A stretch of DNA of 64,000 nucleotides from contig JAIPGM010000001.1 of the NCBI GenBank assembly GCA_021735655.1, positions 192,001 to 256,000 on the forward strand, written 5' to 3'. Below, in pieces: positions 18,465-43,407 of the stretch (positions are counted from its first letter, which is position 1; each line of letters starts with the position of its first letter). Source of the DNA: Candidatus Omnitrophota bacterium. Its GTDB lineage: Bacteria; Omnitrophota; Gorgyraeia; Duberdicusellales; 4484-171. The position numbers were made by a program, and so were the translations under genes. Under the pieces are notes generated by a model, which saw only the letters and a list, made by a program, of their open reading frames with translations, ran no database searches and had not been told where the DNA came from.

Positions 18465-18467
18465 AGG

Positions 18468-20636: not shown

Positions 20637-20646
20637 AAATTTACAT

Positions 20647-31510: not shown

Positions 31511-32991
31511 TACTTATAAGTATTGATGGGGCTTGTTGGCCGGCAATGAATCACTTGTTTAAGAAAGGTGATTTACCGGTTTTAAGCCGCTTAGTAGACC
31601 AAGGGGTCAGCGGGACTCTTAATAATATTAATATGCTTGAGGCTGATCTTTGGGAGATTTTTGATATATACCGAGAGTATATCAAGAAGATCCCTCGTTT
31701 AGGGAGCCATTCGGATTTATCGGATTGGTTGACTTCAATGACTGGTTTTTTACCTAAGGTTCATGGAGTTATTTCCTCAACCGAAAAAGATTCACGTGGC
31801 AGAGAAATACCAGCTTCTCGAAGGACCAGGAAACGTCCGGTAGCATGGGAGATCTTGGCAAATAAAGGCAAAACAATAGGGGTAATTGGCTGTATGGGTG
31901 ATTGGCCCCCGATAGCTTTGCCTCATTATAATGTATCTAGATTTTACAATGTTGATGATATTTATTTTCGCAAAGCTAATAAGGATGCTGACAGTGGCTG
32001 GAAGCTAAACTTAGATAATCTGCATTCCCGGTTAACTTACCCGGCTAACTTAGCAAAAGAGCTGCTTAAGTTTAAGCCGGATAGTCAAATAGAGTCATTC
32101 ATTCAGAGAGGTAAGCCTTATATTAGAGGGGCTTTGTCTTATAAATTACGCTACGATAGTTTGTATTGCCAATGGGCTAAATATCTTCTTAAACGTTTTC
32201 CTCAGCCTGATTTTTTTGCCCTTTCTTTGCATGAAATACATTCCTTGTCACATCTTTTCTGGGATTGCCTGCCTCTGGCCAAGAAAAGATTTAAGGGCGC
32301 GGTTCATCGGCGTCGACAAAAAAAGTATGGCGGGATAATTGAGGATTATTATCGTTACATTGATAAAAATATTGGCGAAGTATTGAAACTGAGCGATAGT
32401 GATTCTACGGTTATGATTCTTTCTCACTACGGCATGGTCGATTCACGAATATTTAAGAAGTACATATTTATGGATAAAATTTATCATAAATTAAATTTTT
32501 TCTTTTATGATGACGGTATTGATTGGGATCGAACCAGCGTGTATGATAATGTTAATCCTTGGGGTATATACGCTGTACGAAAGGGTTTTATCCGCGGACG
32601 CAACCCCCAAAAAATATTTTTATCTTTAAGCAGGAAAATGAAAAAGATAATCACCAATAAAGGTGAGCCTTTGTTTTTGGATATATCATTTGAAAAACAA
32701 GATAATTCATTTAAAGTAGTGCCGAATTACAAGGCCATAAACTATTCGACAAAGATATTAATCAAGGGCGAGGAGATACCAGTAAAGGAGTTAGTAGATT
32801 TTAAACCGCATTATTCTATACATAATCCTGAAGGGGTTTTCATTGTCTCAAGTCGCAAGAGACAATCTTTAAAGGTTATCAAGGATAAAGTTGATTTTTT
32901 GGACATTTTGCCTACGATTTTTTCCTTTTATGGGATAAAAAAAGATCCTAAAATGTCCGGTGAGGTATTTGTAGACAGAAAAAGGAGGTAA
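31498..32991 (+). CDS. Alkaline-phosphatase superfamily protein (type I phosphodiesterase/nucleotide pyrophosphatase-like)
   Basis: The N-terminus KVILISIDGACWPAMNHL matches the Phosphodiest (PF01663) start (metal-binding Asp in ISIDG). It has a long C-terminal extension. Confidence 0.6.
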   Translation: MPKVILISIDGACWPAMNHLFKKGDLPVLSRLVDQGVSGTLNNINMLEADLWEIFDIYREYIKKIPRLGSHSDLSDWLTSMTGFLPKVHGVISSTEKDSRGREIPASRRTRKRPVAWEILANKGKTIGVIGCMGDWPPIALPHYNVSRFYNVDDIYFRKANKDADSGWKLNLDNLHSRLTYPANLAKELLKFKPDSQIESFIQRGKPYIRGALSYKLRYDSLYCQWAKYLLKRFPQPDFFALSLHEIHSLSHLFWDCLPLAKKRFKGAVHRRRQKKYGGIIEDYYRYIDKNIGEVLKLSDSDSTVMILSHYGMVDSRIFKKYIFMDKIYHKLNFFFYDDGIDWDRTSVYDNVNPWGIYAVRKGFIRGRNPQKIFLSLSRKMKKIITNKGEPLFLDISFEKQDNSFKVVPNYKAINYSTKILIKGEEIPVKELVDFKPHYSIHNPEGVFIVSSRKRQSLKVIKDKVDFLDILPTIFSFYGIKKDPKMSGEVFVDRKRR

Positions 32992-32994: not shown

Positions 32995-33288
32995 ATGAAA
33001 GCCGACCAGTTAAAGGGCAAGTGCATGACTATTAACGAAGAAATTATTTCTTGGCGAGAGATCGACAAAGAGGTAGTATTTCTTAATAAACAGGAAAAAA
33101 GTTTTTACGAATTAAACAAAACAGCTGAGATCATTTGGCGCCAGTTAGCCAAAGGCGGTAAACTGACTCAGGTAATTTCTCAGGTTCAAAAGAAATATAA
33201 GAAAGTAGGTAAGCAAGACATAGAAAGAGATGTAATTGCTTTTATTGCAGATGGAATTAAGAAAAAAATATTTATTGTTAATAAATAA
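32995..33288 (+). CDS. PqqD-family peptide chaperone / RiPP recognition element (RRE)
   Basis: It is 97 aa. VVFLNKQEKSFYELNKTAEIIWRQLAKGGKLTQVISQV...DVIAFIADGI fits the PqqD/RRE winged-helix consensus (hhLN..t...h.LN.tA..IW..L.G..t...I). RBS AAGGAGG lies at 32982-32988. Its stop overlaps the start of the rSAM/SPASM gene by 1 nt. Confidence 0.7.
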   Translation: MKADQLKGKCMTINEEIISWREIDKEVVFLNKQEKSFYELNKTAEIIWRQLAKGGKLTQVISQVQKKYKKVGKQDIERDVIAFIADGIKKKIFIVNK

Positions 33289-34442
33289 TGGCTAAGAAAA
33301 AACATTTTCTTCAAAATCCATTTTTTATTATCCAATGGCATATAACTGAACGCTGTAATTGGCAGTGTAAGCATTGCTATCAGGACAAGGCGCCGGTGCC
33401 TGAACTGCCTTTTGGCAAGCTAGAAGGGGTTCTTGGCCAATGTATGGAACTGTTTAAGACTCTAAACGTTCCCGCTAAGCAAGCTTACATGCATATAGGG
33501 GGAGGAGAGCCTTTCTTGCGGAAGGATTTTTTTAAATTCTTAAAGTTGCTGAGCGTGCATAATGATTATTTAAGAATTCAGATAATGACTAACGGCTCAT
33601 TACTTACGCAGTCGGTAGTTAAAGAATTAAAAAGAATGAAGGTGAACGCAGTGCAGGTTAGCTTAGAAGGATTTGAGCAAACTAATGATCAAATAAGAGG
33701 TCCGGGAAGTTTTAATAAGGCTTTGCGGGCTATAGAGTTGCTGATAAAGAACAAAATTTCCACCAGAGTTTCGCTTACCTTGACCAGGATGAATTTAAAC
33801 GAAATAGATGATTTAGCTGTGTATCTTAAAAGCCTCGGGGTCAGGTCTTTTGGAATCCGCAGATACTTTCCTGAAGGAGAAGGTGGGCAGCTGAAGGAGT
33901 TCATGCTTTCGCCTTTAGAAATGAAAGAGTATTATCTTAGGCGTGAGGCTTTGAAGAAAAAATTAGATGTACCGGGAAAATTTTGGGTTTCTAAAGTTTG
34001 TGAAGATGCATGCTATCTAAGCAGTCAGGATCAGTCTTGTCCAAGCTGCGGTATTACTAGAGGATGTCATCTAAATATTTTTACCAACGGCGACATTCTC
34101 GCCTGTAGGCGTTGTCCGATAGTAGTTGGTAATGTATTAAAGGATAGGTTGCTTGATGTTTACTTTTCTTCCGATACCTTGTGGGCTTTGCGGAATTTAG
34201 ATAATGTCAATCCAGAATGTAGGAAATGCACCTATTTCGATAGATGCCTCGGTGGTGCTAAGTGCGAGTCTTATTCTTATTTTAATAATCCATTTGCTCC
34301 TGATCCCCAATGTTTTAGGTTATTTACCGATCTCCCGGATCCACAGAGATATAATAGGCAGGCAGAGAAAATGGAAGTACAAAAGGTTAGTGCTTTTAAG
34401 GGAGAAAAAAAGTTTACGGATGAGATTGAAGATGTGATATAA
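33288..34442 (+). CDS. Radical SAM/SPASM-domain enzyme (peptide-modifying maturase type)
   Basis: The motif is ERCNWQCKHC at ~33354-33377. The C-terminal SPASM region has seven or more Cys (CPSCGITRGCHLNIF...CRRCP...CRKCTYFDRCLGGAKC). It is flanked by a PqqD protein and a small Cys-rich ORF. Confidence 0.85.
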   Translation: MAKKKHFLQNPFFIIQWHITERCNWQCKHCYQDKAPVPELPFGKLEGVLGQCMELFKTLNVPAKQAYMHIGGGEPFLRKDFFKFLKLLSVHNDYLRIQIMTNGSLLTQSVVKELKRMKVNAVQVSLEGFEQTNDQIRGPGSFNKALRAIELLIKNKISTRVSLTLTRMNLNEIDDLAVYLKSLGVRSFGIRRYFPEGEGGQLKEFMLSPLEMKEYYLRREALKKKLDVPGKFWVSKVCEDACYLSSQDQSCPSCGITRGCHLNIFTNGDILACRRCPIVVGNVLKDRLLDVYFSSDTLWALRNLDNVNPECRKCTYFDRCLGGAKCESYSYFNNPFAPDPQCFRLFTDLPDPQRYNRQAEKMEVQKVSAFKGEKKFTDEIEDVI

Positions 34443-34479
34443 TTATAGTGATAATATTATAGTAGACAGGAGATTAGCT

Positions 34480-34653
34480 ATGGTTAGCCATTCGAAAAAG
34501 AAAAAAGAGAAAAACCAAGACAAAATTGCCTCTTCAGTTGCTGCGTACGAAAAACCTAAGTTTAAAAAAATTAAACTGCTCGATCCCAAAGAGGCAGGCA
34601 TTGCCGGAACTACGGCTGGCTGCGGCTGCTGCGGTTGTTGCTGTTGTTGGTAA
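34480..34653 (+). CDS. Unannotated 57-aa small ORF, candidate RiPP/cofactor precursor peptide: Lys-rich leader + Cys-rich core GCGCCGCCCCW
   Basis: Absent from the ORF track because it is under 60 aa. ATG at 34480 has AGGAG 6-10 nt upstream (34469-34473). The translation is MVSHSKKKKEKNQDKIASSVAAYEKPKFKKIKLLDPKEAGIAGTTAGCGCCGCCCCW, ending in TAA at 34651-34653. It lies 38 nt after the rSAM/SPASM gene and 16 nt before the kinase gene, on the same strand. Confidence 0.6.
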   Translation: MVSHSKKKKEKNQDKIASSVAAYEKPKFKKIKLLDPKEAGIAGTTAGCGCCGCCCCW

Positions 34654-34668
34654 TTTTCTAACTTTTGT

Positions 34669-35559
34669 ATGAGTAAATACTACAATGTAGGTTACCCTCT
34701 TGCAGGAGATTGTCGTGGAGTTATCCAAATACGTACTAAAAGTAAATACCTGTGGGACCTCTTGTGTGGTAAATATGCTATGCTTTTTGGCCGTAAGGCC
34801 TTAAGTGGAAACAATGCTATCCGACGAGATTTTTTCATAGATTTTAATTTTATCTCTGATTATCAAGGTTTAGCCAAAAAAAACAAATCTAAATCTTTAG
34901 ATTTTTCTTGCCAGTTTGATAAAAAGTCAATAATTTATAACTTGGTTACCCCTAGGGGGTCCTCATTGGAAATAAACTATTTTAAGCGTTACGCCCAAGT
35001 GGGCTTGATTGAAAAAGATCCGATGATAACTTACTTTGTTGACAGGATGATTCTTTTTACCTATTCGTTAGCTAGAATGTTTATGGTCCATGGTGCTTGG
35101 GTAAAAAGAGGTAAATCTTCATTTTTTCTCATTGGTCGCAGTGGGGTAGGTAAAACAACCATAAGTTCTTTGTTAACCAATCAAAGTAAAGATTACAAAC
35201 TTATGGATGATGACAGTCCGTTTATTTTTCAGGCTGATGACACTTTGTTTGCTGCCTCCAGAGATCAGCGGCTAGTTGAATATTCACCAAATTATTTGTT
35301 TTTTATATCGAAGAAACCGCGCTTAAAGAGTGAAGCCTGCCCTTTAAGTTCTAAAGAGTCATTTAAGAGGTTAATTGAACACTCAGACGTAATTTTTAGA
35401 AAAAATGACCCGATGACCGATTATCGTTTGGATGTCTTAAGGAAATTGGCAATGCGTTGTAAATCATATCTATTGATTAACGGCAAAGATTTGATTGGTA
35501 GCAAAGTTTTGGCTTCTACTTTATTTAATGGTATTATCAAAAGGAGAAAAAATGCGTAG
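34669..35559 (+). CDS. HprK-related serine kinase (HPr kinase C-terminal-domain-like P-loop kinase)
   Basis: SSFFLIGRSGVGKTTISSLLTNQSKDYKLMDDDSPFI is comparable to the HprK/P block vLitGdSGvGKSE..LeLi.rGhrLvaDD (P-loop plus the downstream DD). It has no N-terminal HprK domain, so it resembles the stand-alone HprK-related kinases seen in RiPP clusters. Confidence 0.7.
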   Translation: MSKYYNVGYPLAGDCRGVIQIRTKSKYLWDLLCGKYAMLFGRKALSGNNAIRRDFFIDFNFISDYQGLAKKNKSKSLDFSCQFDKKSIIYNLVTPRGSSLEINYFKRYAQVGLIEKDPMITYFVDRMILFTYSLARMFMVHGAWVKRGKSSFFLIGRSGVGKTTISSLLTNQSKDYKLMDDDSPFIFQADDTLFAASRDQRLVEYSPNYLFFISKKPRLKSEACPLSSKESFKRLIEHSDVIFRKNDPMTDYRLDVLRKLAMRCKSYLLINGKDLIGSKVLASTLFNGIIKRRKNA

Positions 35560-36277
35560 TAAAATTATGTTTTATTTAGGGTTAGCGGTATTTAGTATGC
35601 TTGTTAATATAACAGTGTTCGGTGCAGATATTTCATATCAGGATTTGGTTCAGAGTGCTAAAGATAATTTTGCTTACCAGGTTTCAAATATAAAAAGTAT
35701 TGAGTATAAAGTAGTGGTTTCTGATATTGATGCTGAAACTATTTTATATATAGATGTTTGGGCGAAGTCCCCGGGGAGAGTTAAGGTGAAGCGTTTGGAT
35801 GTTCGTCCTGAGGCAAGCGATGATGGTGAATTCATTTTTGATAAAGGCAAAAGTTGGTCTAATTCTTCGATGGTTCCGGTAGAGATGTATATGGGGATGG
35901 TCGAGCAAGCTTTGTCTGGTGACCTAAGAGGTGGGGCGGTTCTAGAAGAGGAGAGCGGCCTAAGAGAAGTTTCTGGTACAACATATGCAGTAGCTACTTT
36001 ATTGTTTTTCGGAAAGTGTAAGGTAAAGGCATATTATAAGATACCTGATTCCCGCCGACCGGATAAATACGAAGTATTTTTGCTTCAGGGAGATAATTGG
36101 AACAAGTTAATGGATCTAAAACCACAGGATTACCAGGAGGTTGAAGGATCAGTATTTCCCCGCAGGACTGTCCAAACTCTTTATGAGCCCGAAGGCCAAG
36201 AGGAAAGGGTTATGGAGTTTTACAAAATAAAGGTTAATCAGGAAATAGATGACAGTATTTTTCAGATTCCTCAATAA
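35552..36277 (+). CDS. Secreted protein of unknown function (Sec signal peptide)
   Basis: The ATG at 35552 has AAGGAG at 35541-35546. The ORF-track start 35495 lies inside the kinase gene. MRSKIMFYLGLAVFSMLVNITVFGADIS has an n-region, h-region and AxA-like cleavage site. Confidence 0.5.
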   Translation: MRSKIMFYLGLAVFSMLVNITVFGADISYQDLVQSAKDNFAYQVSNIKSIEYKVVVSDIDAETILYIDVWAKSPGRVKVKRLDVRPEASDDGEFIFDKGKSWSNSSMVPVEMYMGMVEQALSGDLRGGAVLEEESGLREVSGTTYAVATLLFFGKCKVKAYYKIPDSRRPDKYEVFLLQGDNWNKLMDLKPQDYQEVEGSVFPRRTVQTLYEPEGQEERVMEFYKIKVNQEIDDSIFQIPQ

Positions 36278-36345
36278 ATTTTCTTAACTGCATAGATAGG
36301 ATTTTGTTTATAGCATTATCCTTTTTTTACGTCTTGCCTTTTAAA

Positions 36346-37149
36346 ATGAAGAAAAACTATACAGTATCATTTATCGAAAGCGACAGTATGTGGCCGGTCT
36401 TGAGGCCTTCAGATAAGGTATTGATTAAGGCAGTATCTTCTGCTTCGTTAAGAGTAGGAGATATTATTGTTTATCGGAAAAAAGAATTTTCGGTTGCCCA
36501 CCGGATTGTCCGAGTAGTTAATAATAAGGGGTTTTCCACTTATTGGACCAGAGGTGACTTTAATTATAAGCTCGATCAGGTTTCTACTGAAAATATAATT
36601 GGTAAAATAGCTGGAGTTTATCGTGATGGCCACCTAAAGCCAGTAAGAGGTCCTGGGTGCTGCTGGCTGTTTTTTATTGTGTTTTTAGGGAAAGAGGCTT
36701 CAACCAGGGTTTTGGAAGGAATATATTCTCTTGGGTTTTTTCGTAGTTGGATTAAAAGATTGTTTCCTTTAAAGGTTTCTTATGTCGTGGTGGGGGACAT
36801 AAAAAGCAATGATGATTTTAAAAGCTTTTATCATCGGTCATTTGATTCTTTATGTGAAGGTGGAACTCAGACAGGAATTATGGCTTTGTTTAAGGGTAAG
36901 CCCATAGGTAAACTTTGGATTTTAATTGACAAAGAAGGCAGCTTTTTTTTCTATGGTCCTTATGTAAGGTTGCTTTACCGTGTGAGGGGAGTTGCTGGAG
37001 GATTGATTAAGCAAGCTGTGTGCTATCTTGAAGGCTCTGGTTTAAAAAGGTCTAAAGTGTATGCTTTTACAGGAGGTAGCCGAATCCTGCTCAACTGCTT
37101 TAGCCGAGAGGAAATAGAAGCTAGAGGAGATTTTCCAGATAAACTTTAG
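36346..37149 (+). CDS. ER/SipW-type signal-peptidase-like (S26B) domain fused to a ~150-aa C-terminal domain of unknown function
   Basis: ESDSMWPVLRPSDKVLIK contains the catalytic-Ser box SMxP. GDIIVYRKK...VAHRIVRV is a box-D equivalent with His in place of the bacterial Lys, as in archaeal/ER-type and SipW enzymes. The start is uncertain; a TTG at 36304 is also possible. Confidence 0.5.
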   Translation: MKKNYTVSFIESDSMWPVLRPSDKVLIKAVSSASLRVGDIIVYRKKEFSVAHRIVRVVNNKGFSTYWTRGDFNYKLDQVSTENIIGKIAGVYRDGHLKPVRGPGCCWLFFIVFLGKEASTRVLEGIYSLGFFRSWIKRLFPLKVSYVVVGDIKSNDDFKSFYHRSFDSLCEGGTQTGIMALFKGKPIGKLWILIDKEGSFFFYGPYVRLLYRVRGVAGGLIKQAVCYLEGSGLKRSKVYAFTGGSRILLNCFSREEIEARGDFPDKL

Positions 37150-37160
37150 AAGAATTAAAA

Positions 37161-38594
37161 ATGGAACAATTTGACTGTGTTTTAATCCATCATTCCGGGC
37201 CGGGCCCTAATGCTAAGCATATTGCTCCTAATGTCTCGATGGGTGTATTTGCTTTGGCAGATATTTTGCAGAGAAACGGCTACAGGACTGAAATAATTCA
37301 TTTAGGCATAGAAGAATATCTTGATAATAGTTTTTCTTTGGCCAGATATTTAAGAGTTAAAAAGCCATTATTGGTTGGAGTTACTTTGCATTGGCATTTA
37401 CAATGCTCTAAAACCGTAGGCTTAGTTAGAAGTATAAAAAAAATAGTTCCTGGCGTTAAAGTTATTTTAGGAGGTTATACGGCAAGCTTTTTTGCCGATC
37501 AAATAATGCCTGAAGTTAAGGAAGTTGATTTTATTATTAGAGGTGATGCTGAGAAACCTCTGCTGGAGTTGATGCGACAGTTAAAAGACGGCCATTTTGA
37601 CTTAAGTTCTGTGCCGAATCTTACTTGGCGTAGAGCCAAAAAGGTAATACATAACAAGCAGAGTTATGTAGCAAAAAAGGAGGATCTTGATCAGTTAAAT
37701 TTCTCTAATTTTAAACTTATGAAAAATAGTCAGTTTTATTTAGGTTCATTAGCTAAAATTTACCAGTCAGTGCAGGATACAGAAACATACAATCTTCTTA
37801 AACTGAATCCTTTTTATCTTTCTGTTGGTCGAGGCTGTCGGTTTAATTGTCTGTTTTGCGGTGGATCGGCAATGGCGCAGAAATTAATTAACAACCGAAA
37901 TAATTTAGTTTTTCGTTCTTCCAAAAAAGTCATCTCTACCATTAAAGACGCTTTTCGAGAAGGAGTAGATACTTTTTGTATTTGTTTTGATCCTAATCTT
38001 GACAAATCTTATTATTTTGATTTATTTCAGTCTATCCGCAAAAATAGAATAAAAATTTCAATGATGTTTGATTGTTGGTCTTTGCCATCATTTGAGTTCA
38101 TTGATGCATTTGCTAAGACTTTTCAAGATGGAAAACATAGTAGCTTAGCCTTATCTCCAGAAACCGGTTCTGAGCGCTTACGAAAAAAGTATAAAGGTTC
38201 ATTCCATACTAACCAGGAATACTTTGAGGTATTTCGTTATTTACGGGCAAAAGGCATAAAATGTGTTGTGCAGTTTGGCTATATATTTCCGGGTGAAAGC
38301 ATGGTAGATTTTAAGAAGACTAGTGACTTCATTGAAACCACCAATGAAATTTTTAAAGGACGAGTGCTTGTAATTATAAATAAATGCGTGATTGACCCGG
38401 CTTCTTTGTTTTATATGTTTCCGAAAAAGTATAAAATAACCAGAAAAGCGGTTAGCTTCTCTGATTATTGTAGATTAGATCCCTGGAAGAGCTATTCTTT
38501 TTTTCCCGCCCAGCAAAAGAAAATGAAAGCTGTTTTAAAGATGTGGCAAAAGGTTGAGGCTCTTCAGTTATTGGATATTGCTGATCCGATCTGA
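37161..38594 (+). CDS. B12-binding radical SAM (class B) enzyme
   Basis: The N-terminal B12-binding-like region is CVLIHHSGPGPNAKHIAPNVSMGVFALADILQRNGYRTEIIHLG. The rSAM motif is SVGRGCRFNCLFCGG (~37830-37860). Confidence 0.75.
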   Translation: MEQFDCVLIHHSGPGPNAKHIAPNVSMGVFALADILQRNGYRTEIIHLGIEEYLDNSFSLARYLRVKKPLLVGVTLHWHLQCSKTVGLVRSIKKIVPGVKVILGGYTASFFADQIMPEVKEVDFIIRGDAEKPLLELMRQLKDGHFDLSSVPNLTWRRAKKVIHNKQSYVAKKEDLDQLNFSNFKLMKNSQFYLGSLAKIYQSVQDTETYNLLKLNPFYLSVGRGCRFNCLFCGGSAMAQKLINNRNNLVFRSSKKVISTIKDAFREGVDTFCICFDPNLDKSYYFDLFQSIRKNRIKISMMFDCWSLPSFEFIDAFAKTFQDGKHSSLALSPETGSERLRKKYKGSFHTNQEYFEVFRYLRAKGIKCVVQFGYIFPGESMVDFKKTSDFIETTNEIFKGRVLVIINKCVIDPASLFYMFPKKYKITRKAVSFSDYCRLDPWKSYSFFPAQQKKMKAVLKMWQKVEALQLLDIADPI

Positions 38595-38613
38595 CCGCGT
38601 TTTAAAGGCGCTT

Positions 38614-39774
38614 TTAAAAAATCATCTTGAAAATGTGTTTTATAAGTCTATAGGGTATATAGAAAATTCTTAGGTGGTATTTTCTAGCTGTTGTTACACA
38701 ACGTTGGGGCAGAGAATAATACTTAGCAAATTGTTCCTGTGGTACGGTTAAAATGTATTTTAAGGGGTAGCTTATGGTGTCGTAATAGATAAATTGACAG
38801 AGGGTGTAGATATAAGGTAGATTTTCCATTCTTACTGGGGTGTAGGTAAAGCGCTGCACGATAGAAGATATTAAATATTTTTGCCAACCAGGCACTTTAA
38901 GTTTTTTCAGGAAAAATTTAAGGTCGACATCCAAAACGAATTGCATTTGATATAATAGAAGGTAGAGGCTTGCTTTGGCTTTTTCTTGTTCAGCTGCCTT
39001 TAAGATATATTCCCAGTTAAGATTTTCCTCTTTTAGGATAATCCCCAAGTCACAAATGTATTTTAAATTAAGTATTTTTCCGAACCGTCGCTGATGTAAG
39101 GCAAGGCTTAGAATAGTGTCTTCGGCGCTTAAAGCTCTAAAGGAGTATCCTGGGCCTTGGATTAGGCGCAGGCGATTCCATGCATCAGGCAATACTTTTT
39201 GCTTAAAGCGATTGCAATCTAAAGCCCAGTGCAGTTCGACTAGTGTAGCTTGGCCATTAGTTTCTTTAGTGAAAGAGAGGTGACATTGGTGCTTTCGCCA
39301 GTAAGCTTCGTCAGATCCGAGAAATTCCTTTTTATAGCCCATGGCCAGAAGAAGAAAAGTTGCTTTTTCAAAGTTTTTTTCAGTGGTGAACAGGTCTATG
39401 TCTGATGAAGGACGTATCCCAAAATGCTTGTAGTATTTATCAGGCAAAGAAAAGCCCTTAATCGGAATAATTAGGGTATCGGATTTTTCCGCTTCTTTGA
39501 GTATATTTGATAATTCAATACATAGATTTTCATGGTTAAAAATTTTTAAGCAATAAAACTTTTTATAAAGTTGTTCAAAGCCTTTCGGTATCGGGTATGA
39601 ATTTTCTTTAAGTATAACCTGAAGAAAGTGAGGTAGCTCATGGTAAAAAATAGCATAACCTAGGTTTTTTCCGTGTATGTTTTCTGCTTTGAGGCTTTTT
39701 AGGAGTAGATCACGTTGGTTTCCATAGACTATTTCCTTCGCTAGGTATTTGATTATTTTTTCTTCAGTTTTCAT
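38614..39774 (-). CDS. Nucleotidyltransferase-fold protein (minimal NTase / NTP_transf_5-like)
   Basis: GIRPSSDIDLFTTEKNFEKATFLLLAMGY matches the G[SG]x9-13DhD NTase signature (SDIDL). The ORF track extends to 39882 but would overlap the upstream rSAM gene by 86 nt. The internal start MKTEEK at 39774 is preferred, though it lacks a clear RBS. Confidence 0.5.
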   Translation of the reverse strand: MKTEEKIIKYLAKEIVYGNQRDLLLKSLKAENIHGKNLGYAIFYHELPHFLQVILKENSYPIPKGFEQLYKKFYCLKIFNHENLCIELSNILKEAEKSDTLIIPIKGFSLPDKYYKHFGIRPSSDIDLFTTEKNFEKATFLLLAMGYKKEFLGSDEAYWRKHQCHLSFTKETNGQATLVELHWALDCNRFKQKVLPDAWNRLRLIQGPGYSFRALSAEDTILSLALHQRRFGKILNLKYICDLGIILKEENLNWEYILKAAEQEKAKASLYLLLYQMQFVLDVDLKFFLKKLKVPGWQKYLISSIVQRFTYTPVRMENLPYIYTLCQFIYYDTISYPLKYILTVPQEQFAKYYSLPQRCVTTARKYHLRIFYIPYRLIKHIFKMIF

Positions 39775-39796
39775 CTTGTAGTAATTAAACTTAGTA

Positions 39797-40843
39797 TTAT
39801 AAAAATAAAGGATAAATGGTTTTGCCCGGGCATTCTTCCGGACAGGATTTTCCTTTACGAAAGGTCCGGTATTTTTCTCCATACCATATATCCTTAAAAG
39901 ATAACTTATTTATATTTCCGAGTGATTTTTTTTCGGCATAAACACAACCTAAGACTTCACCTTCTAAAGTTATAACTGATTGAACCCAAGACAGATAGCA
40001 GGGTTTTTGTTTAGTCTGGCTTTGAATTTTCTGAGGTATTTTGTTACCACTGGCAAAATTTAAGAAACTTTTAATATTGTTGGGAATTTTTATCTTACTG
40101 GAAATGCTTGAGATTTTTTCCACGAATTCTTCCTGCTCAGACTCCGGAGGAATAAGTCTTTTATTTAGTTCCGGAGTCATAAGTAGAGGTTTAAACAGCA
40201 GCTTATCTGCCGATAATTTCTGGCTAAGAGCGATCATCTCGGCAGCATTGTGGTAATTAAGATTAGATATTACGTTTACCAGAAACAAGAGAGGGTATCG
40301 TTTTTTGCCTTTTAGGGACTTTATCAGGAAGAGATTGTTTAATAAAGTATTGAAATCTTTTTTGTTTCTGGAGGGCCTGATCCTTTGGAAAGTTTCAGCA
40401 TCCGCGCAATGAAGACTTACCAGAATTTTTTTTACACCCTTTTCTATTAGCTTGGCTATATTAGTTTTATCAAGATAAAAGGCATTGGTCATTAGCTCAA
40501 CATTGATTTTTTGCTCACCGGCTATGCTTATAAGTTTAAACAGATCGGGATGCATTAGTGGTTCACCTTCTCCGGTAAATAAAATAGTGTTTACCTGAAG
40601 GGTTTTTAATTGCTTAACCAGGGCAGAAAATGTATCACAGGAGATATGCTGATCCGGTTTTTTTTTGGATATCGCCCCTGAATGATACCAACACATTTCG
40701 CAAGCCATGTCGCATTTATTGGTTATATCAAGAGTTATCTTAAGCGGTCCGGTAAAAGCTCTGCTTCGGGAAAGTATTCCTAGGAGGCGGAGCATATTGT
40801 GAGAATTTGAAAGATAGTGTAGATTGTTTTTTAACGAAAACAT
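39797..40843 (-). CDS. Radical SAM enzyme with SPASM/twitch-like C-terminal Cys cluster (same family as 12887/17592/62098)
   Basis: The motif is NKCDMACEMC (~40690-40730 on the - strand). The C-terminus is KPCYLSWVQSVITLEGEVLGCVYAEKKSLGNINKLSFKDIW...KSCPEECPG. Confidence 0.8.
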   Translation of the reverse strand: MFSLKNNLHYLSNSHNMLRLLGILSRSRAFTGPLKITLDITNKCDMACEMCWYHSGAISKKKPDQHISCDTFSALVKQLKTLQVNTILFTGEGEPLMHPDLFKLISIAGEQKINVELMTNAFYLDKTNIAKLIEKGVKKILVSLHCADAETFQRIRPSRNKKDFNTLLNNLFLIKSLKGKKRYPLLFLVNVISNLNYHNAAEMIALSQKLSADKLLFKPLLMTPELNKRLIPPESEQEEFVEKISSISSKIKIPNNIKSFLNFASGNKIPQKIQSQTKQKPCYLSWVQSVITLEGEVLGCVYAEKKSLGNINKLSFKDIWYGEKYRTFRKGKSCPEECPGKTIYPLFL

Positions 40844-41059: not shown

Positions 41060-41911
41060 ATGAGCAAACCTTTATTATCGGTGATTATCCCAGCTTTTAA
41101 CGCCGAAATTTACATTGAAAAATGTTTGCAACCATTGATTAAGAATCTGTCTGATGGTTTAGAAGTAATTGTTGTCGATAATGGGTCAGTTGATAAAACA
41201 GCAGCTATTGTAACTGAGGGATACCCTCAGGTAACTTTGTTGAAAAATCAGGAAAATCTCGGTGCTTGTAGGGCTAGGAATCAAGCTATCGAAGTCTCAT
41301 CTGGAGAATGGGTTTTGACTCTTGATTGTGATGTGGTTTTGGAAGATGACTTTATTTTAAAAGTATCTCAGTTGATAGATGATCTGCCGTCTGATCGTAT
41401 TGGAATAATCCAGCCAAAAATATTGCAAGCTGACAAAAAAACTATTGATTCCTGTGGAATCCATCTTTCCTGGTTGAGGAGATTCTATGATCTTGGGAAG
41501 GGGAAAACTGACTCCGGCCAATTCAATGAATCTATCTATGTTTTCGGCGCCTGCTCAGCCTGCGCTCTTTATCGGCGGACGATGCTTGAGGATTTAAAAG
41601 AAAGTGGAGAATACTTTGATCAAAAGTTCTTTTTTTTAGTGGAAGATGTGGACTTGGCCTGGCGAGCAAATAATAGGCAGTGGCAATCATTCTTTTTTCC
41701 TTTTATTTCTTGTTGTCATATCGGAAAAAGTTCAGGTTTTCCTAAGAAATTCCGGCAGTATCTTTGTTTTCGCAATCGCTACTACACAATAGCTAAAAAC
41801 GAGGGGTTGGGTAGGTATGCCGGAAAAATTTTACCTGTGATTATATATGATTTTCCTAGGTTGGTTTATTTGGCTTTAACTAATAAATATTTCTGGACTA
41901 GAAAATTGTGA
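41060..41911 (+). CDS. Glycosyltransferase family 2 (GT-A, inverting)
   Basis: The N-terminus LLSVIIPAFNAEIYIEKCL and VVDNGSVDKT are typical of GT2. TLDCDVVL provides a DxD-like motif. Confidence 0.8.
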   Translation: MSKPLLSVIIPAFNAEIYIEKCLQPLIKNLSDGLEVIVVDNGSVDKTAAIVTEGYPQVTLLKNQENLGACRARNQAIEVSSGEWVLTLDCDVVLEDDFILKVSQLIDDLPSDRIGIIQPKILQADKKTIDSCGIHLSWLRRFYDLGKGKTDSGQFNESIYVFGACSACALYRRTMLEDLKESGEYFDQKFFFLVEDVDLAWRANNRQWQSFFFPFISCCHIGKSSGFPKKFRQYLCFRNRYYTIAKNEGLGRYAGKILPVIIYDFPRLVYLALTNKYFWTRKL

Positions 41912-43407
41912 AAACCGAAAACGGAATTACAAACCGGCGTGATTTTTGGATAAAGATTTCTCTGTTCTTTTTTGCTCTTTTTCTGCTTAGGGTATATGGT
42001 CTTAGCCGGCATGAGTTTTGGTATGATGAAATATACTCGGTTGATTTTGCCCGTTCTCCCTTGCTCAGTTGGAACGCCCCTCTTTATTGGATTATTATTC
42101 ATTTTTGGTCAAAGTTATTTGGTTTGTCTGAATTCAGCCTGCGTTTTCCTTCTGCTATTTTTAGTCTGGCTACTTGCGTAGGGACCTATGTTTTGGGAAA
42201 GATGATATTTAGCCGGAGGATCGGGCTTTTGTCAGCTTTGATCATTGGCTTGTCACCTTTCCACCTCTGGTATGCTCAGGAAGCCAGGAATTACAGCCTG
42301 GTAACTTTTTTGGGAATATTTTCTTCTTATTTATTTTTTCGGGCTCTTAATGAGAGAAAAACAATATTTTGGGTTTACTTTGTAGTAATTTCTTTGCTTG
42401 GCGTGTACACAAACTACTTTTATTTGTTTTTGTTGTTTTTTCAAGGGGTCTATTTTGTTTGCTTCCGGGGGGTCAGATTCAAGCTTAAAGAAATATGGCC
42501 TTTTTTAATAGTTCTTGCCGGATTTATGTTTTATTTTCCGGGATTTATCAGTAAGTTTGCTTTTGTAAAATTAGGTTTTTGGGTGCCTAAGCCAGAGCTT
42601 GGGGCACTACTTATTAGTTTTGAGAATTTTCTTTTGGGTTATAGCGGAAACAGATTTTTTTATCTAGTGGCTAGTTTAATAACTTTAGTTTGTATTGGTG
42701 CGTTATTATATAAAGTAATAAAGGATAAGGCTATTTGCCAGGGGGTATTTTTTTGTTTTTGTTTATCGTTTGCTCCGATATTATTGATATTTTTGTTTTC
42801 CAGTATTTTTTTCTCAATTTATTTAGATCGGGGCCTGATGTTGTTCAGTCCTTATTTTTATATTCTTCTTTCTTTGGGATTGTTTTATTTGGTTCGACGC
42901 TGGAGAATCATTGTTTTTATTTCTCTTGTTTTTTTACAGATAGTTGCTATTTTCGGATTTTATCAGGATCGGATGTATCCGCCGCTTAAGCATCATATCG
43001 GAACTTATCTTAAAAAACCGGTTAAACCGGCCATAACTTTTCTTGAGGACAATGTCCGAGAGGGTGATATTGTTGCTTATACTAATCCTTCGGCCATACG
43101 TTCTATGGAATATTATAGCCAGCGGAGATTAGCTGATTTTTATATGTTTTTTGATCCGAGCTTGTCGGAATCATCTTGGCAAAGGCCTATCCAGGAAACA
43201 GCCACTATAGTTCCATATAATAAAATAAGAGGCTTACCTGCTGAACGTATTTGGGTTATTTTTAATGATTGGGGTAGAACCGGTGGCTTGGATGAACATT
43301 CAAAAATAGTAAAGGATTGGATGGATGAAAATCTTACCTTGAAAACTTCCCGGGAATTTGATGGCTTGTGGGTATTGGAGTATACAAAGAAAGTCATTAG
43401 CCCATAG
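41908..43407 (+). CDS. GT-C fold membrane glycosyltransferase, PMT/ArnT-like (GT39/GT83 family)
   Basis: It has more than ten predicted TM helices. The first periplasmic loop carries the family hallmark RHEFWYDEIYSVDFA (DE motif). The ATGA overlap with the upstream gene indicates coupling. Confidence 0.7.
   Translation: MKTENGITNRRDFWIKISLFFFALFLLRVYGLSRHEFWYDEIYSVDFARSPLLSWNAPLYWIIIHFWSKLFGLSEFSLRFPSAIFSLATCVGTYVLGKMIFSRRIGLLSALIIGLSPFHLWYAQEARNYSLVTFLGIFSSYLFFRALNERKTIFWVYFVVISLLGVYTNYFYLFLLFFQGVYFVCFRGVRFKLKEIWPFLIVLAGFMFYFPGFISKFAFVKLGFWVPKPELGALLISFENFLLGYSGNRFFYLVASLITLVCIGALLYKVIKDKAICQGVFFCFCLSFAPILLIFLFSSIFFSIYLDRGLMLFSPYFYILLSLGLFYLVRRWRIIVFISLVFLQIVAIFGFYQDRMYPPLKHHIGTYLKKPVKPAITFLEDNVREGDIVAYTNPSAIRSMEYYSQRRLADFYMFFDPSLSESSWQRPIQETATIVPYNKIRGLPAERIWVIFNDWGRTGGLDEHSKIVKDWMDENLTLKTSREFDGLWVLEYTKKVISP

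What the first reader, a model, noticed from the sequence alone, without database searches (positions are those of the whole stretch)
32995..40843. RiPP-like or cofactor-like cassette embedded in the glycan locus: PqqD-RRE, rSAM/SPASM, Cys-rich peptide, HprK-like kinase, S26-like peptidase, B12-rSAM, NTase, second rSAM/SPASM
Seen in sequence: a 97-aa PqqD-family protein whose stop overlaps the start of an rSAM/SPASM gene, followed 38 nt later by a 57-aa ORF ending GCGCCGCCCCW and 16 nt later by a P-loop HprK-related kinase. Further downstream are a Sec-secreted protein, an ER-type signal-peptidase-like fusion and a class-B B12-rSAM. Convergently transcribed are a nucleotidyltransferase and another rSAM/SPASM. 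Established knowledge: a PqqD-like protein, an rSAM/SPASM and a small peptide make up the architecture of PQQ (PqqA/D/E) and mycofactocin (MftA/B/C) biogenesis and of sacti/ranthipeptide maturation. HprK-like kinases phosphorylate RiPP precursors in the paeninodin lasso system. Inference: this is a complete peptide-maturation system of a type I cannot match to a described family. The core carries eight Cys in its last 11 residues and a C-terminal Trp, unlike PqqA, MftA, SCIFF or lasso cores. From memory, a bioinformatic-only 'HPr-rel-A' neighbourhood (HprK-related kinase, PqqD-family protein, nucleotidyltransferase) exists in TIGRFAMs. This cassette may be an elaborated instance of it in which the substrate peptide is visible.
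Basis: partly seen in the sequence, partly recalled or inferred. Interest (0 to 1): 0.92.

Follow-up and report, generated by a model that had tools for sequence, protein, structure and literature searches.

The report
Radical-SAM variant of phosphorylated-peptide (LPP-like) gene cluster
This is a real, conserved gene cluster in an uncultured Omnitrophota bacterium that very likely makes a small, heavily modified cysteine-rich peptide. Its core machinery matches a peptide family first described in 2026 in Bacillota, with radical-SAM enzymes added.

Summary
The tail GCGCCGCCCCW has 7 Cys, not 8. The 'S26-like fusion' is a signal-peptidase domain fused to a GNAT acetyltransferase.

The 57-aa ORF is a real gene. 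It has an AGGAG ribosome-binding site. A profile built only from peptides of other genomes ranks it first of 1670 six-frame segments (E 0.0013). A 94%-identical metagenome copy carries only synonymous changes in the core.

The precursor has a Y-x-x-P-x-hydrophobic leader. That is the motif bound by lasso, PQQ and LPP recognition proteins. The window's PqqD protein keeps the residues that LppB uses to bind that Tyr and Pro.

PqqD, the HprK-like kinase, the archaeal-type signal peptidase and the NTP_transf_5 nucleotidyltransferase, all set in a polysaccharide locus, form the core of the 'linear polyphosphorylated peptide' (LPP) family (Popov et al. 2026). That family was reported as restricted to Bacillota and has no radical SAM enzyme. 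Here a radical SAM/SPASM maturase is translationally coupled to the PqqD gene and the core is Cys-rich.

The combination recurs: 15 of 80 genome loci, and 21 of 24 metagenome loci found through the nucleotidyltransferase.

Verdict: an uncharacterised radical-SAM variant of a known kind. The chemistry on cysteine is unknown.

The parts
32995..33288 (+). Discrete PqqD-family RiPP recognition element (RRE), 97 aa. Strong ribosome-binding site (AAAGGAGG). Its stop codon overlaps the rSAM1 start by 1 nt.
   Evidence: PF05402, 43.4 bits. Best NCBIfam hits are lasso PqqD chaperones. PDB: TbiB1 E 1e-4, TfuB1 3e-3, LppB (9x8z_B) 3.6e-3. The alignment keeps LppB N33/Y60/D70/F74 as N41/Y68/D79/F83. Sequence read.
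33288..34442 (+). Radical SAM/SPASM maturase (rSAM1), 384 aa, with no fused N-terminal RRE.
   Evidence: PF04055, E 9e-24. C23-x3-C27-x2-C30 plus invariant C238, C254, C273, C311, C314, C320, C326, C342. Best NCBIfam hit is TIGR04340 rSAM_ACGX, 169 bits (cut-off 400). PDB profile: SkfB 4e-24, CteB 1e-18, anSME 2e-17, PqqE 2e-16. Those chains align from residues 99-137, so they have an N-terminal extension that rSAM1 lacks.
34480..34653 (+). Precursor peptide, 57 aa: a basic leader with Y23-E-K-P26-K-F28 (34546-34563), T44-T45 (34609-34614, the only hydroxyl residues after the motif), and the Cys-rich tail GCGCCGCCCCW (34618-34650).
   Evidence: AGGAG 8 nt upstream. Leave-one-out HMM top hit, E 0.0013. 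Family of 34 unnamed proteins in a 5.8-billion-protein database. Against the 94%-identical copy L081 there are 4 synonymous and 3 non-synonymous changes, and every core change is synonymous.
34669..35559 (+). HprK/PEPCK-superfamily P-loop kinase (LppK-like), 296 aa. P-loop G156-R-S-G-V-G-K-T-T; invariant H141.
   Evidence: Family alignment. NCBIfam on the family: HprK_rel_A 6/7 members (best 1.7e-10), ScmC 5/7, HprK_rel_B 5/7. PDB profile: PEPCK 8.5e-5, HprK/P 6e-3. AF2 model, C-terminal domain pLDDT about 75; Foldseek top hits are all PEPCK or HprK/P, with E only 4e-3 to 0.1.
35552..36277 (+). Secreted LolA-like protein (accessory). Conserved at the same position in the nearest metagenome relative, L082.
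   Evidence: N-terminal hydrophobic segment, residues 4-27. Weak LolA_like hit, E 0.0016. The L082 homolog at 4377-5135 has a lipoprotein-type signal. Absent from the other loci.
36346..37149 (+). Fusion of an archaeal/ER-type signal-peptidase-I-like leader peptidase (LppS-like; Ser14/His52/Asp71 counted from the ATG at 36346) and a C-terminal GNAT N-acetyltransferase domain. No membrane anchor. The ORF may start at the TTG at 36304.
   Evidence: TIGR02228, 67.6 bits against 51.85. Invariant S-M-x-P, H-R and G-D motifs. PDB profile: SEC11A 4e-10 for positions 8-77; protein and N-alpha-acetyltransferases (3f8k 5.6e-8, Naa50, Naa30, RimI) for positions about 150-270. No 19-residue window with Kyte-Doolittle hydropathy >= 1.6.
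37161..38594 (+). Class-B (B12-binding) radical SAM enzyme. A lineage-specific accessory and probable methyltransferase.
   Evidence: PF02310 plus PF04055. TIGR04190-like, 192 bits (cut-off 500). Only distant homologs in related loci.
38614..39774 (-). NTP_transf_5 nucleotidyltransferase (LppN/PsmN-like), transcribed convergently.
   Evidence: PF14907, 105 bits against 31.2. Conserved at 26-49% identity to the window protein in the seven-sequence alignment A6 (L001, L003, L004, L006, L009, L012). Used as an independent anchor for 80 metagenome loci.
39797..40843 (-). Second radical SAM/SPASM enzyme (rSAM2).
   Evidence: PF04055 plus PF13186. Best NCBIfam hit is the tungsten-cofactor oxidoreductase maturase, 124 bits (cut-off 380). 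Homologs in L002 (42%) and L003 (36%), with a partial hit in L001.
30272..32991 (+). GT4 glycosyltransferase (30272-31510) and an alkaline-phosphatase-superfamily phosphodiesterase (31498-32991), lying directly upstream of PqqD on the same strand. It is uncertain whether they belong to the system.
   Evidence: Pfam. The gap to PqqD is 3 nt. GT4 homologs lie next to the cassette in L002, L004 and L005. No homolog of the phosphodiesterase was found in other loci.
41060..43407 (+). GT2 (41060-41911) and PMT_2/GT-C membrane glycosyltransferase (41908-43407). These are conserved neighbours and possible late glycosylation enzymes. It is uncertain whether they belong to the system.
   Evidence: Pfam. 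A PMT_2 homolog lies directly beside the NTase in L001, L009 and L012, and beside rSAM2 in L003. GT2 homologs occur in L001, L004, L005, L006, L012 and L047.

Best explanation
The cassette is a biosynthetic gene cluster for a ribosomally made, post-translationally modified peptide. It combines the core machinery of the LPP (linear polyphosphorylated peptide) family with a radical SAM/SPASM maturase. The proposed order of events follows.

1. The 57-aa precursor is bound through its leader motif Y23-x-x-P26-x-F28 by the discrete PqqD-type recognition protein.
2. That protein presents the peptide to rSAM1, which has no recognition domain of its own and whose gene is translationally coupled to the PqqD gene. 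rSAM1 carries out radical chemistry on the Cys-rich C-terminal core. The most likely reaction is Cys-derived thioether cross-links of the sacti/ranthipeptide type.
3. The HprK-like kinase phosphorylates, possibly more than once, the Thr44/Thr45 pair just before the Cys block.
4. The soluble signal-peptidase-like domain removes the leader with the help of the recognition protein. Its fused GNAT domain acetylates the newly exposed N-terminus.
5. The NTP_transf_5 enzyme extends the phosphate with a nucleotide or a sugar.
6. The B12-rSAM and rSAM2 add lineage-specific modifications.
7. The product leaves the cell, perhaps by the nearby ABC-2 exporter.

Shown here: the gene identities, the conserved gene set, the conservation of the peptide, and the retention of the leader-binding residues.
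Taken from experiments on LPP: kinase to Ser near the start of the core, and leader cleavage by the SpI-like peptidase that depends on the recognition protein.
Inferred only: the rSAM chemistry, the acetylation, the NTase product, the exact cleavage site, and export.
For: - Domain assignments.
- TAATG overlap between PqqD and rSAM1. PqqD-then-rSAM1 adjacency is conserved in L001, L002, L003, L009 and L012, with PqqD about 300-600 bp upstream in L004 and L005.
- rSAM1 lacks the 85-115-residue N-terminal extension of SkfB, CteB and SuiB.
- Peptide family: the Y-x-[KE]-P-x-hydrophobic leader plus Cys/Gly/Ser/Thr-rich tails occurs in 12 of the 15 genome loci that carry the kinase/NTase/PqqD set. 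A thirteenth, L043, has a Cys-tailed peptide with a different, Tat-like leader. The leave-one-out HMM gives E 0.0013. Core substitutions against L081 are all synonymous.
- The window PqqD keeps the LppB residues that hydrogen-bond the leader Tyr (D70 -> D79) and fix the Pro kink (N33 -> N41).
- Popov et al. 2026 showed experimentally that LppK polyphosphorylates Ser3 of the core, that LppS (S29/H68/D93) cleaves the leader only with the RRE, and that these clusters sit in capsule loci.
- In every kinase-bearing relative a Ser or Thr lies 1-6 residues before the first Cys.
- Independent anchor: of 24 metagenome loci found through the NTase that also have PqqD and the kinase, 21 have an rSAM/SPASM within 2.5 kb. 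Peptides had at least 2 Cys in 14 of 14 rSAM-bearing loci and 0 Cys in 2 of 2 rSAM-less loci (Fisher p = 0.008).
- More distant rSAM1 homologs also sit next to proteins with Cys-rich C-terminal tails: a TIGR04222 protein ending GGGCGGGCGGCGGCG, and HxsA3-like leaders followed by S-C-H repeats.
Against: - No family cut-off is reached for rSAM1, rSAM2, the B12-rSAM or the kinase, so the chemistry cannot be read from annotation.
- anSME, which is not a cross-linking enzyme, scores almost as well as CteB.
- Seven Cys with few acceptor residues is an awkward substrate for ordinary sacti/ranthi cross-linking. L001's core has a single Cys.
- LppK did not accept Thr in place of Ser3, and the window core offers only Thr.
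- The LPP leader consensus beyond YxxPx(V/L) is absent, and no MsbA-like exporter is present.
- In the two closest relatives of the peptide gene the upstream neighbour is not rSAM1. L081 has a Toprim-like gene and L082 a methyltransferase-like gene. Both contigs are short.
- The kinase structure model is of low confidence overall (pLDDT 55).
Confidence: 0.72

Rival explanations
1. A plain LPP-type phosphopeptide cluster that merely lies among unrelated radical SAM genes. On this reading rSAM1, rSAM2 and the B12-rSAM modify sugars or lipids of the surrounding envelope-glycan pathway and never touch the peptide.
For: - The window holds at least ten rSAM genes mixed with glycosyltransferases and ABC-2 exporters.
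- rSAM1 homologs in Patescibacteria and DPANN sit in rSAM arrays, or directly before a GT4 homolog, with no PqqD or kinase (L013, L022, L034).
- L082 and L081 show the peptide gene without an adjacent rSAM1.
Against: - The PqqD and rSAM1 genes overlap (TAATG), and this pairing is conserved in at least 7 loci.
- rSAM1 lacks its own RRE.
- 21 of 24 NTase-anchored loci have an rSAM beside the core genes, and Cys in the peptide tracks the presence of an rSAM.
- Even distant rSAM1 homologs neighbour Cys-rich tails.
Confidence: 0.1
2. A peptide-derived redox cofactor pathway of the PQQ or mycofactocin type. PqqD and the rSAM/SPASM would process a small peptide into a cofactor for a partner enzyme.
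For: - A discrete PqqD, an rSAM/SPASM and a small peptide is the PqqA/D/E and MftA/B/C layout.
- The mycofactocin maturase model scores 120 bits and the PqqE model 68 bits.
- The leader motif resembles that of PqqA.
Against: - All cut-offs are missed: 265 for MftC, 381 for PqqE.
- Cores differ completely between related genomes: GCGCCGCCCCW, VSSCY, CTCCTCGCS, SCSSCSTCSSCACGS. One locus carries five different precursors (L047). A cofactor precursor would be invariant.
- The PqqA Glu/Tyr pair and the MftA Val-Tyr end are absent.
- No PqqB/C/F, MftD/E/F or partner dehydrogenase genes are present.
- A kinase, an NTase and a leader peptidase point to a secreted RiPP.
Confidence: 0.04
3. The radical SAM enzyme is not the main cross-linker. 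Either the kinase activates Ser/Thr for elimination and Cys addition, giving lanthionine-like bridges, or the free poly-Cys tail works as a metal or Fe-S binding peptide.
For: - The cores are rich in Ser/Thr and Cys, as lanthipeptide cores are.
- L002's core weakly resembles heterocycloanthracin and thiopeptide precursors.
- rSAM2's best model is a tungsten-cofactor enzyme maturase.
Against: - No lyase, cyclase or YcaO gene was found by Pfam in any of the 48 ORFs of at least 120 aa scanned.
- The window core has only two Thr against seven Cys.
- In LPP the phosphates stay on the product rather than being eliminated.
Confidence: 0.08
4. The 57-aa ORF is a chance ORF, and the cassette acts on something else.
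For: It is short and of low complexity, and it has no Pfam or NCBIfam match.
Against: - Ribosome-binding site present.
- Leave-one-out profile hit.
- Purifying pattern of substitutions.
- Same position and leader motif in many genomes.
- NCBI annotates it as a gene, K9L86_00375.
Confidence: 0.01

Closest known systems
LPP (linear polyphosphorylated peptide) RiPP family, lppA-K-B-S-D-N of Paenibacillus alginolyticus (Popov et al., Nat Commun 2026, PMC13381572)
   Same: - Discrete PqqD RRE with the same Tyr- and Pro-binding residues.
- HprK-like kinase of the TIGR04352/04249/04355 group.
- Archaeal-type signal-peptidase-I-like leader peptidase (TIGR02228) with a Ser/His/Asp triad.
- NTP_transf_5 enzyme.
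- YxxPx-hydrophobic leader motif.
- Location inside a polysaccharide biosynthesis locus.

   Different: - LPP has no radical SAM enzyme, and its product is described as linear.
- LPP was reported as restricted to Bacillota. This cluster is in Omnitrophota, with relatives in MAGs labelled Nitrospirota and Rhodospirillales.
- The rest of the LPP leader consensus (VLxHQxIxFETxxS) is absent.
- There is no MsbA-like pump.
- The peptidase is fused to a GNAT domain.
- The core is a short poly-Cys tail, with Thr rather than Ser at the presumed phosphorylation site.
Sactipeptide/ranthipeptide maturation (SkfB, CteB/SCIFF, PapB)
   Same: rSAM with CxxxCxxC and a full SPASM Cys set. Best solved relatives are SkfB and CteB. 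The core is rich in Cys, Ser, Thr and Gly, as in SCIFF.
   Different: The RRE is a separate protein rather than an N-terminal domain. No family cut-off is met (PapB model 67 bits against 340; StsB 73 against 625). A kinase, an NTase and an SpI-GNAT are present. Thioether formation was not shown.
ACGX system (NCBIfam TIGR04340 rSAM; the ACGX-repeat peptide is recalled from memory), bioinformatic only
   Same: It is the best-scoring family model for rSAM1 (169 bits). Relatives' cores such as SCGACVGCGSCACGSCGCAGCS resemble A-C-G-X repeats.
   Different: The score is far below the 400-bit cut-off. No peptide matched any NCBIfam model. No paper on the system was found in the library.
SynChlorMet cassette (ScmC kinase-like, ScmD PqqD-like, ScmE/ScmF rSAM/SPASM; NCBIfam TIGR04248-04251), bioinformatic only
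   Same: The same logic: a PqqD-like protein, two rSAM/SPASM enzymes and an HprK-related protein. Sub-threshold hits to ScmD, ScmE and ScmF. ScmC is hit by 5 of 7 kinase-family members.
   Different: All scores are well below the cut-offs (21.6 against 100; 105 against 400; 85 against 400). The window kinase itself does not hit ScmC.
Phosphorylated and glycosylated lasso peptides (paeninodin PadeK; pseudomycoidin PsmK/PsmN) and the TIGRFAMs HPr-rel-A neighbourhood
   Same: An HprK-like kinase and an NTP_transf_5 enzyme act as a tailoring pair. The RRE is B1-type (nearest PDB relatives TbiB1 and TfuB1). The leader carries YxxP.
   Different: There is no lasso cyclase and no B2 protease. The only Asn_synthase-like hit is a 291-aa PP-loop protein beside LarB/LarC. 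The lasso kinases act on a C-terminal Ser, and here the C-terminus is Trp.
PQQ (PqqA/D/E) and mycofactocin (MftA/B/C)
   Same: A discrete PqqD-family chaperone with an rSAM/SPASM and a small precursor. The leader motif is PqqA-like.
   Different: The cores are variable and the signature residues are absent. No downstream cofactor genes are present. Model cut-offs are not met.

Membership tests
LPP family (Popov et al. 2026) | Archaeal-type signal peptidase I (TIGR02228, SipW-like) with a catalytic Ser/His/Asp triad | tested here: met
   TIGR02228, 67.6 bits against a cut-off of 51.85. Ser, His and Asp are invariant in 6 homologs. SEC11A E 4e-10.
LPP family (Popov et al. 2026) | Discrete PqqD-type RRE with the Asn and Asp that fix the leader Pro and Tyr | tested here: met
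   PF05402 above cut-off. Alignment to LppB (9x8z_B) maps N33 to N41 and D70 to D79.
LPP family (Popov et al. 2026) | HprK-like kinase (TIGR04249, TIGR04352 or TIGR04355) | tested here: inconclusive
   The window protein scores only 16 bits on TIGR04352 (cut-off 200). Its family hits TIGR04352 in 6 of 7 members (best 1.7e-10) and TIGR04249 in 5 of 7. PDB and Foldseek top hits are PEPCK and HprK/P.
LPP family (Popov et al. 2026) | NTP_transf_5 nucleotidyltransferase | tested here: met
   PF14907, 105 bits against 31.2.
LPP family (Popov et al. 2026) | Precursor leader YxxPxVLxHQxIxFETxxS | tested here: not met
   Only Y-E-K-P-K-F matches. The following residues are KKIKLLDPKEAG.
LPP family (Popov et al. 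2026) | MsbA-like exporter in the core set | tested here: not met
   Pfam on 48 of the 49 listed ORFs of at least 120 aa found only ABC-2-type and Opp-type transporters.
LPP family (Popov et al. 2026) | No primary cross-linking enzyme, so the product stays linear; phosphorylation of a Ser near the start of the core | not testable with these tools
   An rSAM/SPASM is coupled to the RRE, which argues against a purely linear product. Phosphorylation needs mass spectrometry.
Sacti/ranthipeptide maturase systems | rSAM CxxxCxxC plus a SPASM domain with two auxiliary clusters | tested here: met
   Invariant Cys pattern. PF13186 in homologs. SkfB and CteB are the best solved relatives.
Sacti/ranthipeptide maturase systems | Membership of a curated maturase family (PapB, StsB, SkfB and similar) | tested here: not met
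   PapB 67 bits against 340; StsB 73 against 625.
Sacti/ranthipeptide maturase systems | Cys-to-carbon thioether cross-links in the product | not testable with these tools
   Needs MS/MS or NMR.
ACGX system (TIGR04340/04341) | rSAM scoring at least 400 bits on TIGR04340, and an ACGX-repeat peptide | tested here: not met
   169 bits. The peptides have no NCBIfam hit.
SynChlorMet cassette | ScmC, ScmD, ScmE and ScmF above their cut-offs | tested here: not met
   ScmD 21.6 against 100; ScmE 105 against 400; ScmF 85 against 400. The window kinase has no ScmC hit.
HPr-rel-A system (TIGRFAMs) | HprK-related kinase A at 200 bits or more, plus its PqqD partner family | tested here: not met
   16.2 bits. 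The PqqD hits lasso, PQQ and Scm models only.
PQQ / mycofactocin | PqqE or MftC above cut-off, and invariant core residues in the precursor | tested here: not met
   PqqE 68 bits against 381; MftC 120 against 265. The cores are hypervariable.
Lasso peptide | Asn-synthetase-like macrolactam cyclase and transglutaminase-like B2 protease | tested here: not met
   Neither was found in the 48 ORFs scanned. The 291-aa PP-loop protein at 50745 lies with LarB/LarC.

The most novel reading that the evidence does not exclude
The peptide pathway and the surrounding glycan genes are one system. The radical-SAM-modified, phosphorylated poly-Cys peptide would be exported and then glycosylated, or used as a primer or anchor, by the co-conserved GT2/PMT_2 (GT-C) and GT4 enzymes and the NTP_transf_5 enzyme. 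The result would be a phosphoglyco-peptide component of the Omnitrophota cell envelope. It would also give the first clue to what NTP_transf_5 does and why LPP-type clusters sit in polysaccharide loci.
Probability: 0.15. Interest if true: 0.85.

Novelty: new variant of a known kind. Interest (0 to 1): 0.6.

Why it matters
- It extends the LPP-type machinery (RRE, HprK-like kinase, signal-peptidase-like leader peptidase, NTP_transf_5) well beyond Bacillota, the phylum it was reported to be restricted to.
- In environmental genomes this machinery is usually joined to radical SAM/SPASM enzymes and Cys-bearing cores.
- It gives testable substrates for a large clade of SPASM enzymes whose chemistry is unknown. 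That clade's relatives include the bioinformatic-only ACGX, SynChlorMet, TIGR04222 and His-Xaa-Ser neighbourhoods.
- It reveals a leader peptidase fused to an N-acetyltransferase.
- The near-pure poly-Cys core is an unusual substrate and may carry chemistry not yet described.

Tried and rejected
- Exact look-up of the rSAM1 protein found nothing, although a 100%-identical entry exists.
- Literature searches for ACGX, TIGR04340, HPr-rel-A and PF14907, and for 'HPr kinase + radical SAM + PqqD', gave nothing useful.
- A simple regex test for leader motif plus Cys tail gave no enrichment over reversed or shuffled sequence: 20 hits against 17 and a mean of 13.8. The rule also missed the window's own peptide. 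I replaced it with the leave-one-out profile test.
- The kinase alignment was too divergent to seed a metagenome scan, so I used the NTase instead.
- The kinase AF2 model is poor in residues 1-135, and the Foldseek E-values (4e-3 and above) are supportive only.
- The promoter and terminator scan did not exceed shuffled controls.
- The B12 column is invalid because the HMM was not built. I ignored it.
- Considered and rejected: a lasso cluster (no cyclase or B2), a PQQ/mycofactocin-type cofactor (variable cores), and a chance ORF.
- The cleavage site could not be fixed. LPP spacing (Tyr at -16) predicts ...LLDPKE|AGIAG.... The signal-peptidase -3/-1 rule predicts ...GIAG|TTAG....

Full report
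**Observation**

- Pfam confirms PqqD (PF05402, 43.4 bits) and radical SAM in 33288-34442.
- It confirms B12-binding plus radical SAM in 37161-38594.
- It confirms NTP_transf_5 (PF14907, 105 bits) in 38614-39882(-), and radical SAM plus SPASM in 39797-40843(-).
- NCBIfam places the 36304-37149 protein above the cut-off of the archaeal-type signal peptidase I model (TIGR02228, 67.6 against 51.85).

The PqqD stop and the rSAM1 start overlap in TAATG, and PqqD has a strong Shine-Dalgarno sequence. The 57-aa ORF starts 37 nt after rSAM1, with AGGAG 8 nt upstream. The kinase starts 15 nt after it.

- The tail GCGCCGCCCCW has seven Cys, not eight.
- The NTase probably starts at 39774 and the secreted protein at 35552.

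The source is a Candidatus Omnitrophica/Omnitrophota MAG. A 100%-identical rSAM1 lies on a 341-kb contig, and NCBI already annotates the peptide as hypothetical protein K9L86_00375.

**Is the small ORF a gene?**

I fetched 80 genome loci holding rSAM1 homologs. In the closest ones a small ORF with the same design sits beside the PqqD/rSAM/kinase genes. The design is a basic N-terminus, a Y-x-[K/E]-P-x-hydrophobic motif, and then a Cys/Gly/Ser/Thr-rich tail. Examples of tails:
- L001: ...AAGVSSCY
- L002: ...SSCGACVGCGSCACGSCGCAGCS
- L003: ...TTYTCTCS...
- L004/L005: ...SCSSCSTCSSCACGS
- L006: ...QSCALCV
- L009/L012: ...GCTCCTCGCS
- L025: ...AACSSCGVA
- L047: five tandem copies ending in GCGCG-type tails

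A profile of these peptides finds 34 proteins in a 5.8-billion-protein database. None of them is named.

A profile built from 11 peptides of other loci, leaving out the window's own, ranks the window ORF first among all 1670 six-frame segments of the window (E 0.0013; next best 0.61).

A 94%-identical copy on another metagenome contig (L081) differs at 7 codons. The three non-synonymous changes all lie in the N-terminal leader, before the YEKP motif. The three changes in the core are all synonymous.

A cruder regex test was not discriminating, and I discarded it.

**The other proteins**

rSAM1:
- It has C23-x3-C27-x2-C30 and eight invariant C-terminal Cys in a SPASM-like arrangement.
- Its best family model is the bioinformatic-only ACGX-system rSAM (169 bits, cut-off 400). 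Next come SbtM, GeoRSP and the mycofactocin maturase, all sub-threshold.
- Its best solved relatives are SkfB, CteB, anSME, PqqE and SuiB. SkfB, CteB and SuiB align only from residue 99-137 onward, so rSAM1 lacks their fused N-terminal recognition domain. That fits its coupling to a separate PqqD.

Kinase:
- On its own it is only weakly HprK-like.
- An alignment of seven orthologs shows an invariant His and a G-x-S-G-x-G-K-T/S P-loop.
- Its profile hits PEP carboxykinase and HprK/P in the PDB.
- Six of the seven members hit HprK-related kinase A (best E 1.7e-10), and five hit ScmC.
- A low-confidence AlphaFold model returns only PEPCK and HprK/P as top Foldseek matches.

S26 protein:
- It is a two-domain fusion. 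The N-terminal part matches SEC11A-type signal peptidase, with invariant Ser, His and Asp.
- The C-terminal part, about 120 residues, matches GNAT protein and N-alpha-acetyltransferases.
- It has no hydrophobic segment strong enough for a membrane anchor.

**What it corresponds to**

A paper from May 2026 (Popov et al., PMC13381572) defines the 'linear polyphosphorylated peptide' (LPP) RiPP family of Bacillota. Its conserved set is:
- an archaeal-type SpI (TIGR02228);
- a discrete PqqD RRE;
- an HprK-like kinase (TIGR04249, TIGR04352 or TIGR04355);
- an NTP_transf_5 enzyme;
- an MsbA-like pump.

The clusters are embedded in capsular polysaccharide loci, and the precursor carries a YxxPxV/L leader motif.

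Their experiments show three things. The kinase polyphosphorylates Ser3 of the core. The SpI-like peptidase (S29/H68/D93) removes the leader only when the RRE presents it. The NTase product is unknown.

The window contains four of these five proteins, the leader motif and the genomic setting.

The window PqqD aligns to the crystallised LppB (9x8z_B). It keeps the Asn that fixes the Pro kink (N33 -> N41), the Asp that hydrogen-bonds the Tyr (D70 -> D79), and also Y60 and F74.

The paper and its co-occurrence table mention no radical SAM enzyme, and the authors state that LPPs are restricted to Bacillota.

**How general is the radical SAM addition?**

Among the 80 rSAM1-anchored genome loci, 15 carry at least two of PqqD, kinase, NTase and SpI. 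Their MAGs are labelled Omnitrophota, Planctomycetia/Planctomycetales, Nitrospirota and Rhodospirillales. Twelve of the 15 show a YxxP/Cys-tail peptide. One more, L043, has a Cys-tailed peptide (...HGCGCGG) behind a Tat-like leader.

To avoid ascertainment through rSAM1, I repeated the search from the NTase in metagenomes.
- 24 loci hold NTase, PqqD and kinase together. In 21 of them an rSAM/SPASM gene lies within 2.5 kb, usually next to PqqD.
- Where a [Y/W]xxP peptide could be found, it had at least two Cys in 14 of 14 rSAM-bearing loci and none in the 2 rSAM-less loci (Fisher p = 0.008; small sample).

More distant rSAM1 homologs in Patescibacteria and DPANN archaea lack the LPP genes. They still sit next to proteins with Cys-rich C-terminal tails:
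- a TIGR04222 membrane protein ending GGGCGGGCGGCGGCG;
- HxsA3-like leaders followed by S-C-H repeats;
- a Methanosarcinales peptide ending GCGCGCGCGCH.

The common theme of this SPASM clade is therefore Cys-rich tails. The chemistry has not been described for any of them.

**Mechanism proposed**

1. The RRE binds Y23-x-x-P26-x-F28.
2. rSAM1 modifies the Cys-rich tail. Thioether cross-linking is the most likely reaction, given the nearest characterised relatives and the SCIFF-like composition, but this is inference.
3. The kinase phosphorylates Thr44/Thr45. These are the only hydroxyl residues after the motif. In every kinase-bearing relative a Ser or Thr lies 1-6 residues before the first Cys.
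4. The soluble SpI domain removes the leader, and the fused GNAT acetylates the new N-terminus.
5. The NTase extends the phosphate, as proposed for pseudomycoidin.
6. The B12-rSAM and rSAM2 are accessories. rSAM2 is shared with L002 and L003, and the B12-rSAM is specific to this lineage.

Points against or left open:
- Seven Cys leave few acceptor residues.
- anSME scores nearly as well as CteB.
- No MsbA-type pump is present.
- The cleavage site is ambiguous.
- The two closest copies of the peptide gene (L081, L082) do not show rSAM1 immediately upstream, although both contigs are short.

**Rivals**

- Unrelated glycan-pathway rSAMs beside a plain LPP cluster: 0.10.
- A PQQ/mycofactocin-like cofactor: 0.04. 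The hypervariable cores and multiple precursors argue against it.
- Kinase-driven lanthionine-like chemistry, or a metal-binding peptide: 0.08.
- A chance ORF: 0.01.

**Setting and novelty**

The cassette lies on one strand, with gaps of 0-68 nt, from the GT4 gene at 30272 to the B12-rSAM at 38594. It is flanked by GT2 and PMT_2 genes that are also neighbours in related loci. The authors of the LPP paper likewise note the unexplained link to polysaccharide loci. A functional link between peptide and glycan is the most novel reading that is not excluded. I give it about 0.15.

Overall this is a new, uncharacterised variant of a known kind of system. It is neither a categorically new one nor an ordinary annotated one.

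Noticed in passing
window 10524-23805, 27598-28944(-), 62098-63213: The locus is unusually dense in radical SAM genes outside the cassette. These include a 1284-aa protein with three rSAM and three SPASM domains (12887-16741) and a 1052-aa protein with a B12 domain and two rSAM domains (20647-23805). There are also a 788-aa rSAM, a 722-aa B12-rSAM and three smaller ones. They are mixed with GT4/GT2/PMT_2 glycosyltransferases, an MBOAT and two Wzm/Wzt-like ABC-2 exporters. Their substrates are unknown.
   Followed up: partly
L081:1-1574 vs window 34438-34701: Another metagenome carries the same peptide gene and the start of the kinase gene at 94% nucleotide identity. Similarity stops exactly at the rSAM1 stop codon. 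Upstream lie a Toprim-like gene and two small ORFs instead. This could be an insertion, a rearrangement or a chimeric assembly.
   Followed up: partly
L082:3511-7345: The closest NTase relative (49%) has, in order, a peptide (...YEKPKFKKIKF...GCGCCSGCCSACCSGCSSL), the kinase, a LolA-like lipoprotein and SpI-GNAT, the same order as the window. The gene upstream of the peptide, however, is a 312-aa methyltransferase-like protein whose C-terminus looks PqqD-like by eye. The contig ends before any rSAM1.
   Followed up: partly
L017:4012-4176, L019:3387-3551, L031:3960-4151 and P0128, P0133-P0136, P0148-P0153: A peptide subfamily has the same YxxP leader but a hydrophobic stretch ending in a lipobox-like L-A-G-C followed by only T/S-P-A/V-K-S (…NYLAAIFVGTALAGCTPAKS). 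It looks like a lipoprotein signal peptide placed after a RiPP leader.
   Followed up: no
L047:5097-7928: Five tandem precursor genes share the leader LYVEPxVLATYSKEELEETIRPHG and have different Gly/Cys tails. They lie beside PqqD, SpI and NTase genes in an uncultured bacterium.
   Followed up: no
L105:5035-5229 and 8755-8940, L118:12008-12184, L141:10268-10462: A second precursor type, W-x-[KR]-P-K-L-I-I-L-x-R-x-x-P-E-E followed by a Cys-containing core, occurs in NTase/PqqD/kinase/rSAM loci from metagenomes.
   Followed up: no
L036:2428-3330, L040:7644-7865 and 10418-11629, L037:5482-5709, L027:1861-2304, L029:9010-9705, L033:2187-2747: Distant rSAM1 homologs in DPANN archaea, Patescibacteria and Pirellulaceae neighbour proteins with Gly/Cys or Ser-Cys-His repeat tails. 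One is a TIGR04222 membrane protein (96 bits). Several others have an HxsA3-like N-terminus.
   Followed up: partly
L007:3391-3600, L018:7772-7981 and 9135-9356, L020:9121-9339, L033:1938-2126, L035:2000-2203: A conserved protein of about 62-73 aa (…DY[IV]hxYRSxEHYEVLGWh…EEAKxKA…) lies directly beside rSAM1 homologs in Patescibacteria/DPANN loci. It has no Cys-rich tail and no NCBIfam hit.
   Followed up: no
window 50745-54760: LarE-like PP-loop protein, LarB (AIRC), LarC (Ni_insertion, 478 bits) and a DUF362 protein. This is a nickel-pincer cofactor biosynthesis set at the edge of the glycan locus.
   Followed up: no
window 57260-59194 and 59194-61128: Two adjacent 644-aa ORFs with no Pfam match, lying between a PMT_2 gene and a GT2 gene.
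   Followed up: no
window 31498-32991: An alkaline-phosphatase-superfamily 'Phosphodiest' protein ends 3 nt before PqqD. It could act on the phosphorylated peptide, but no homolog was found in any related locus.
   Followed up: partly
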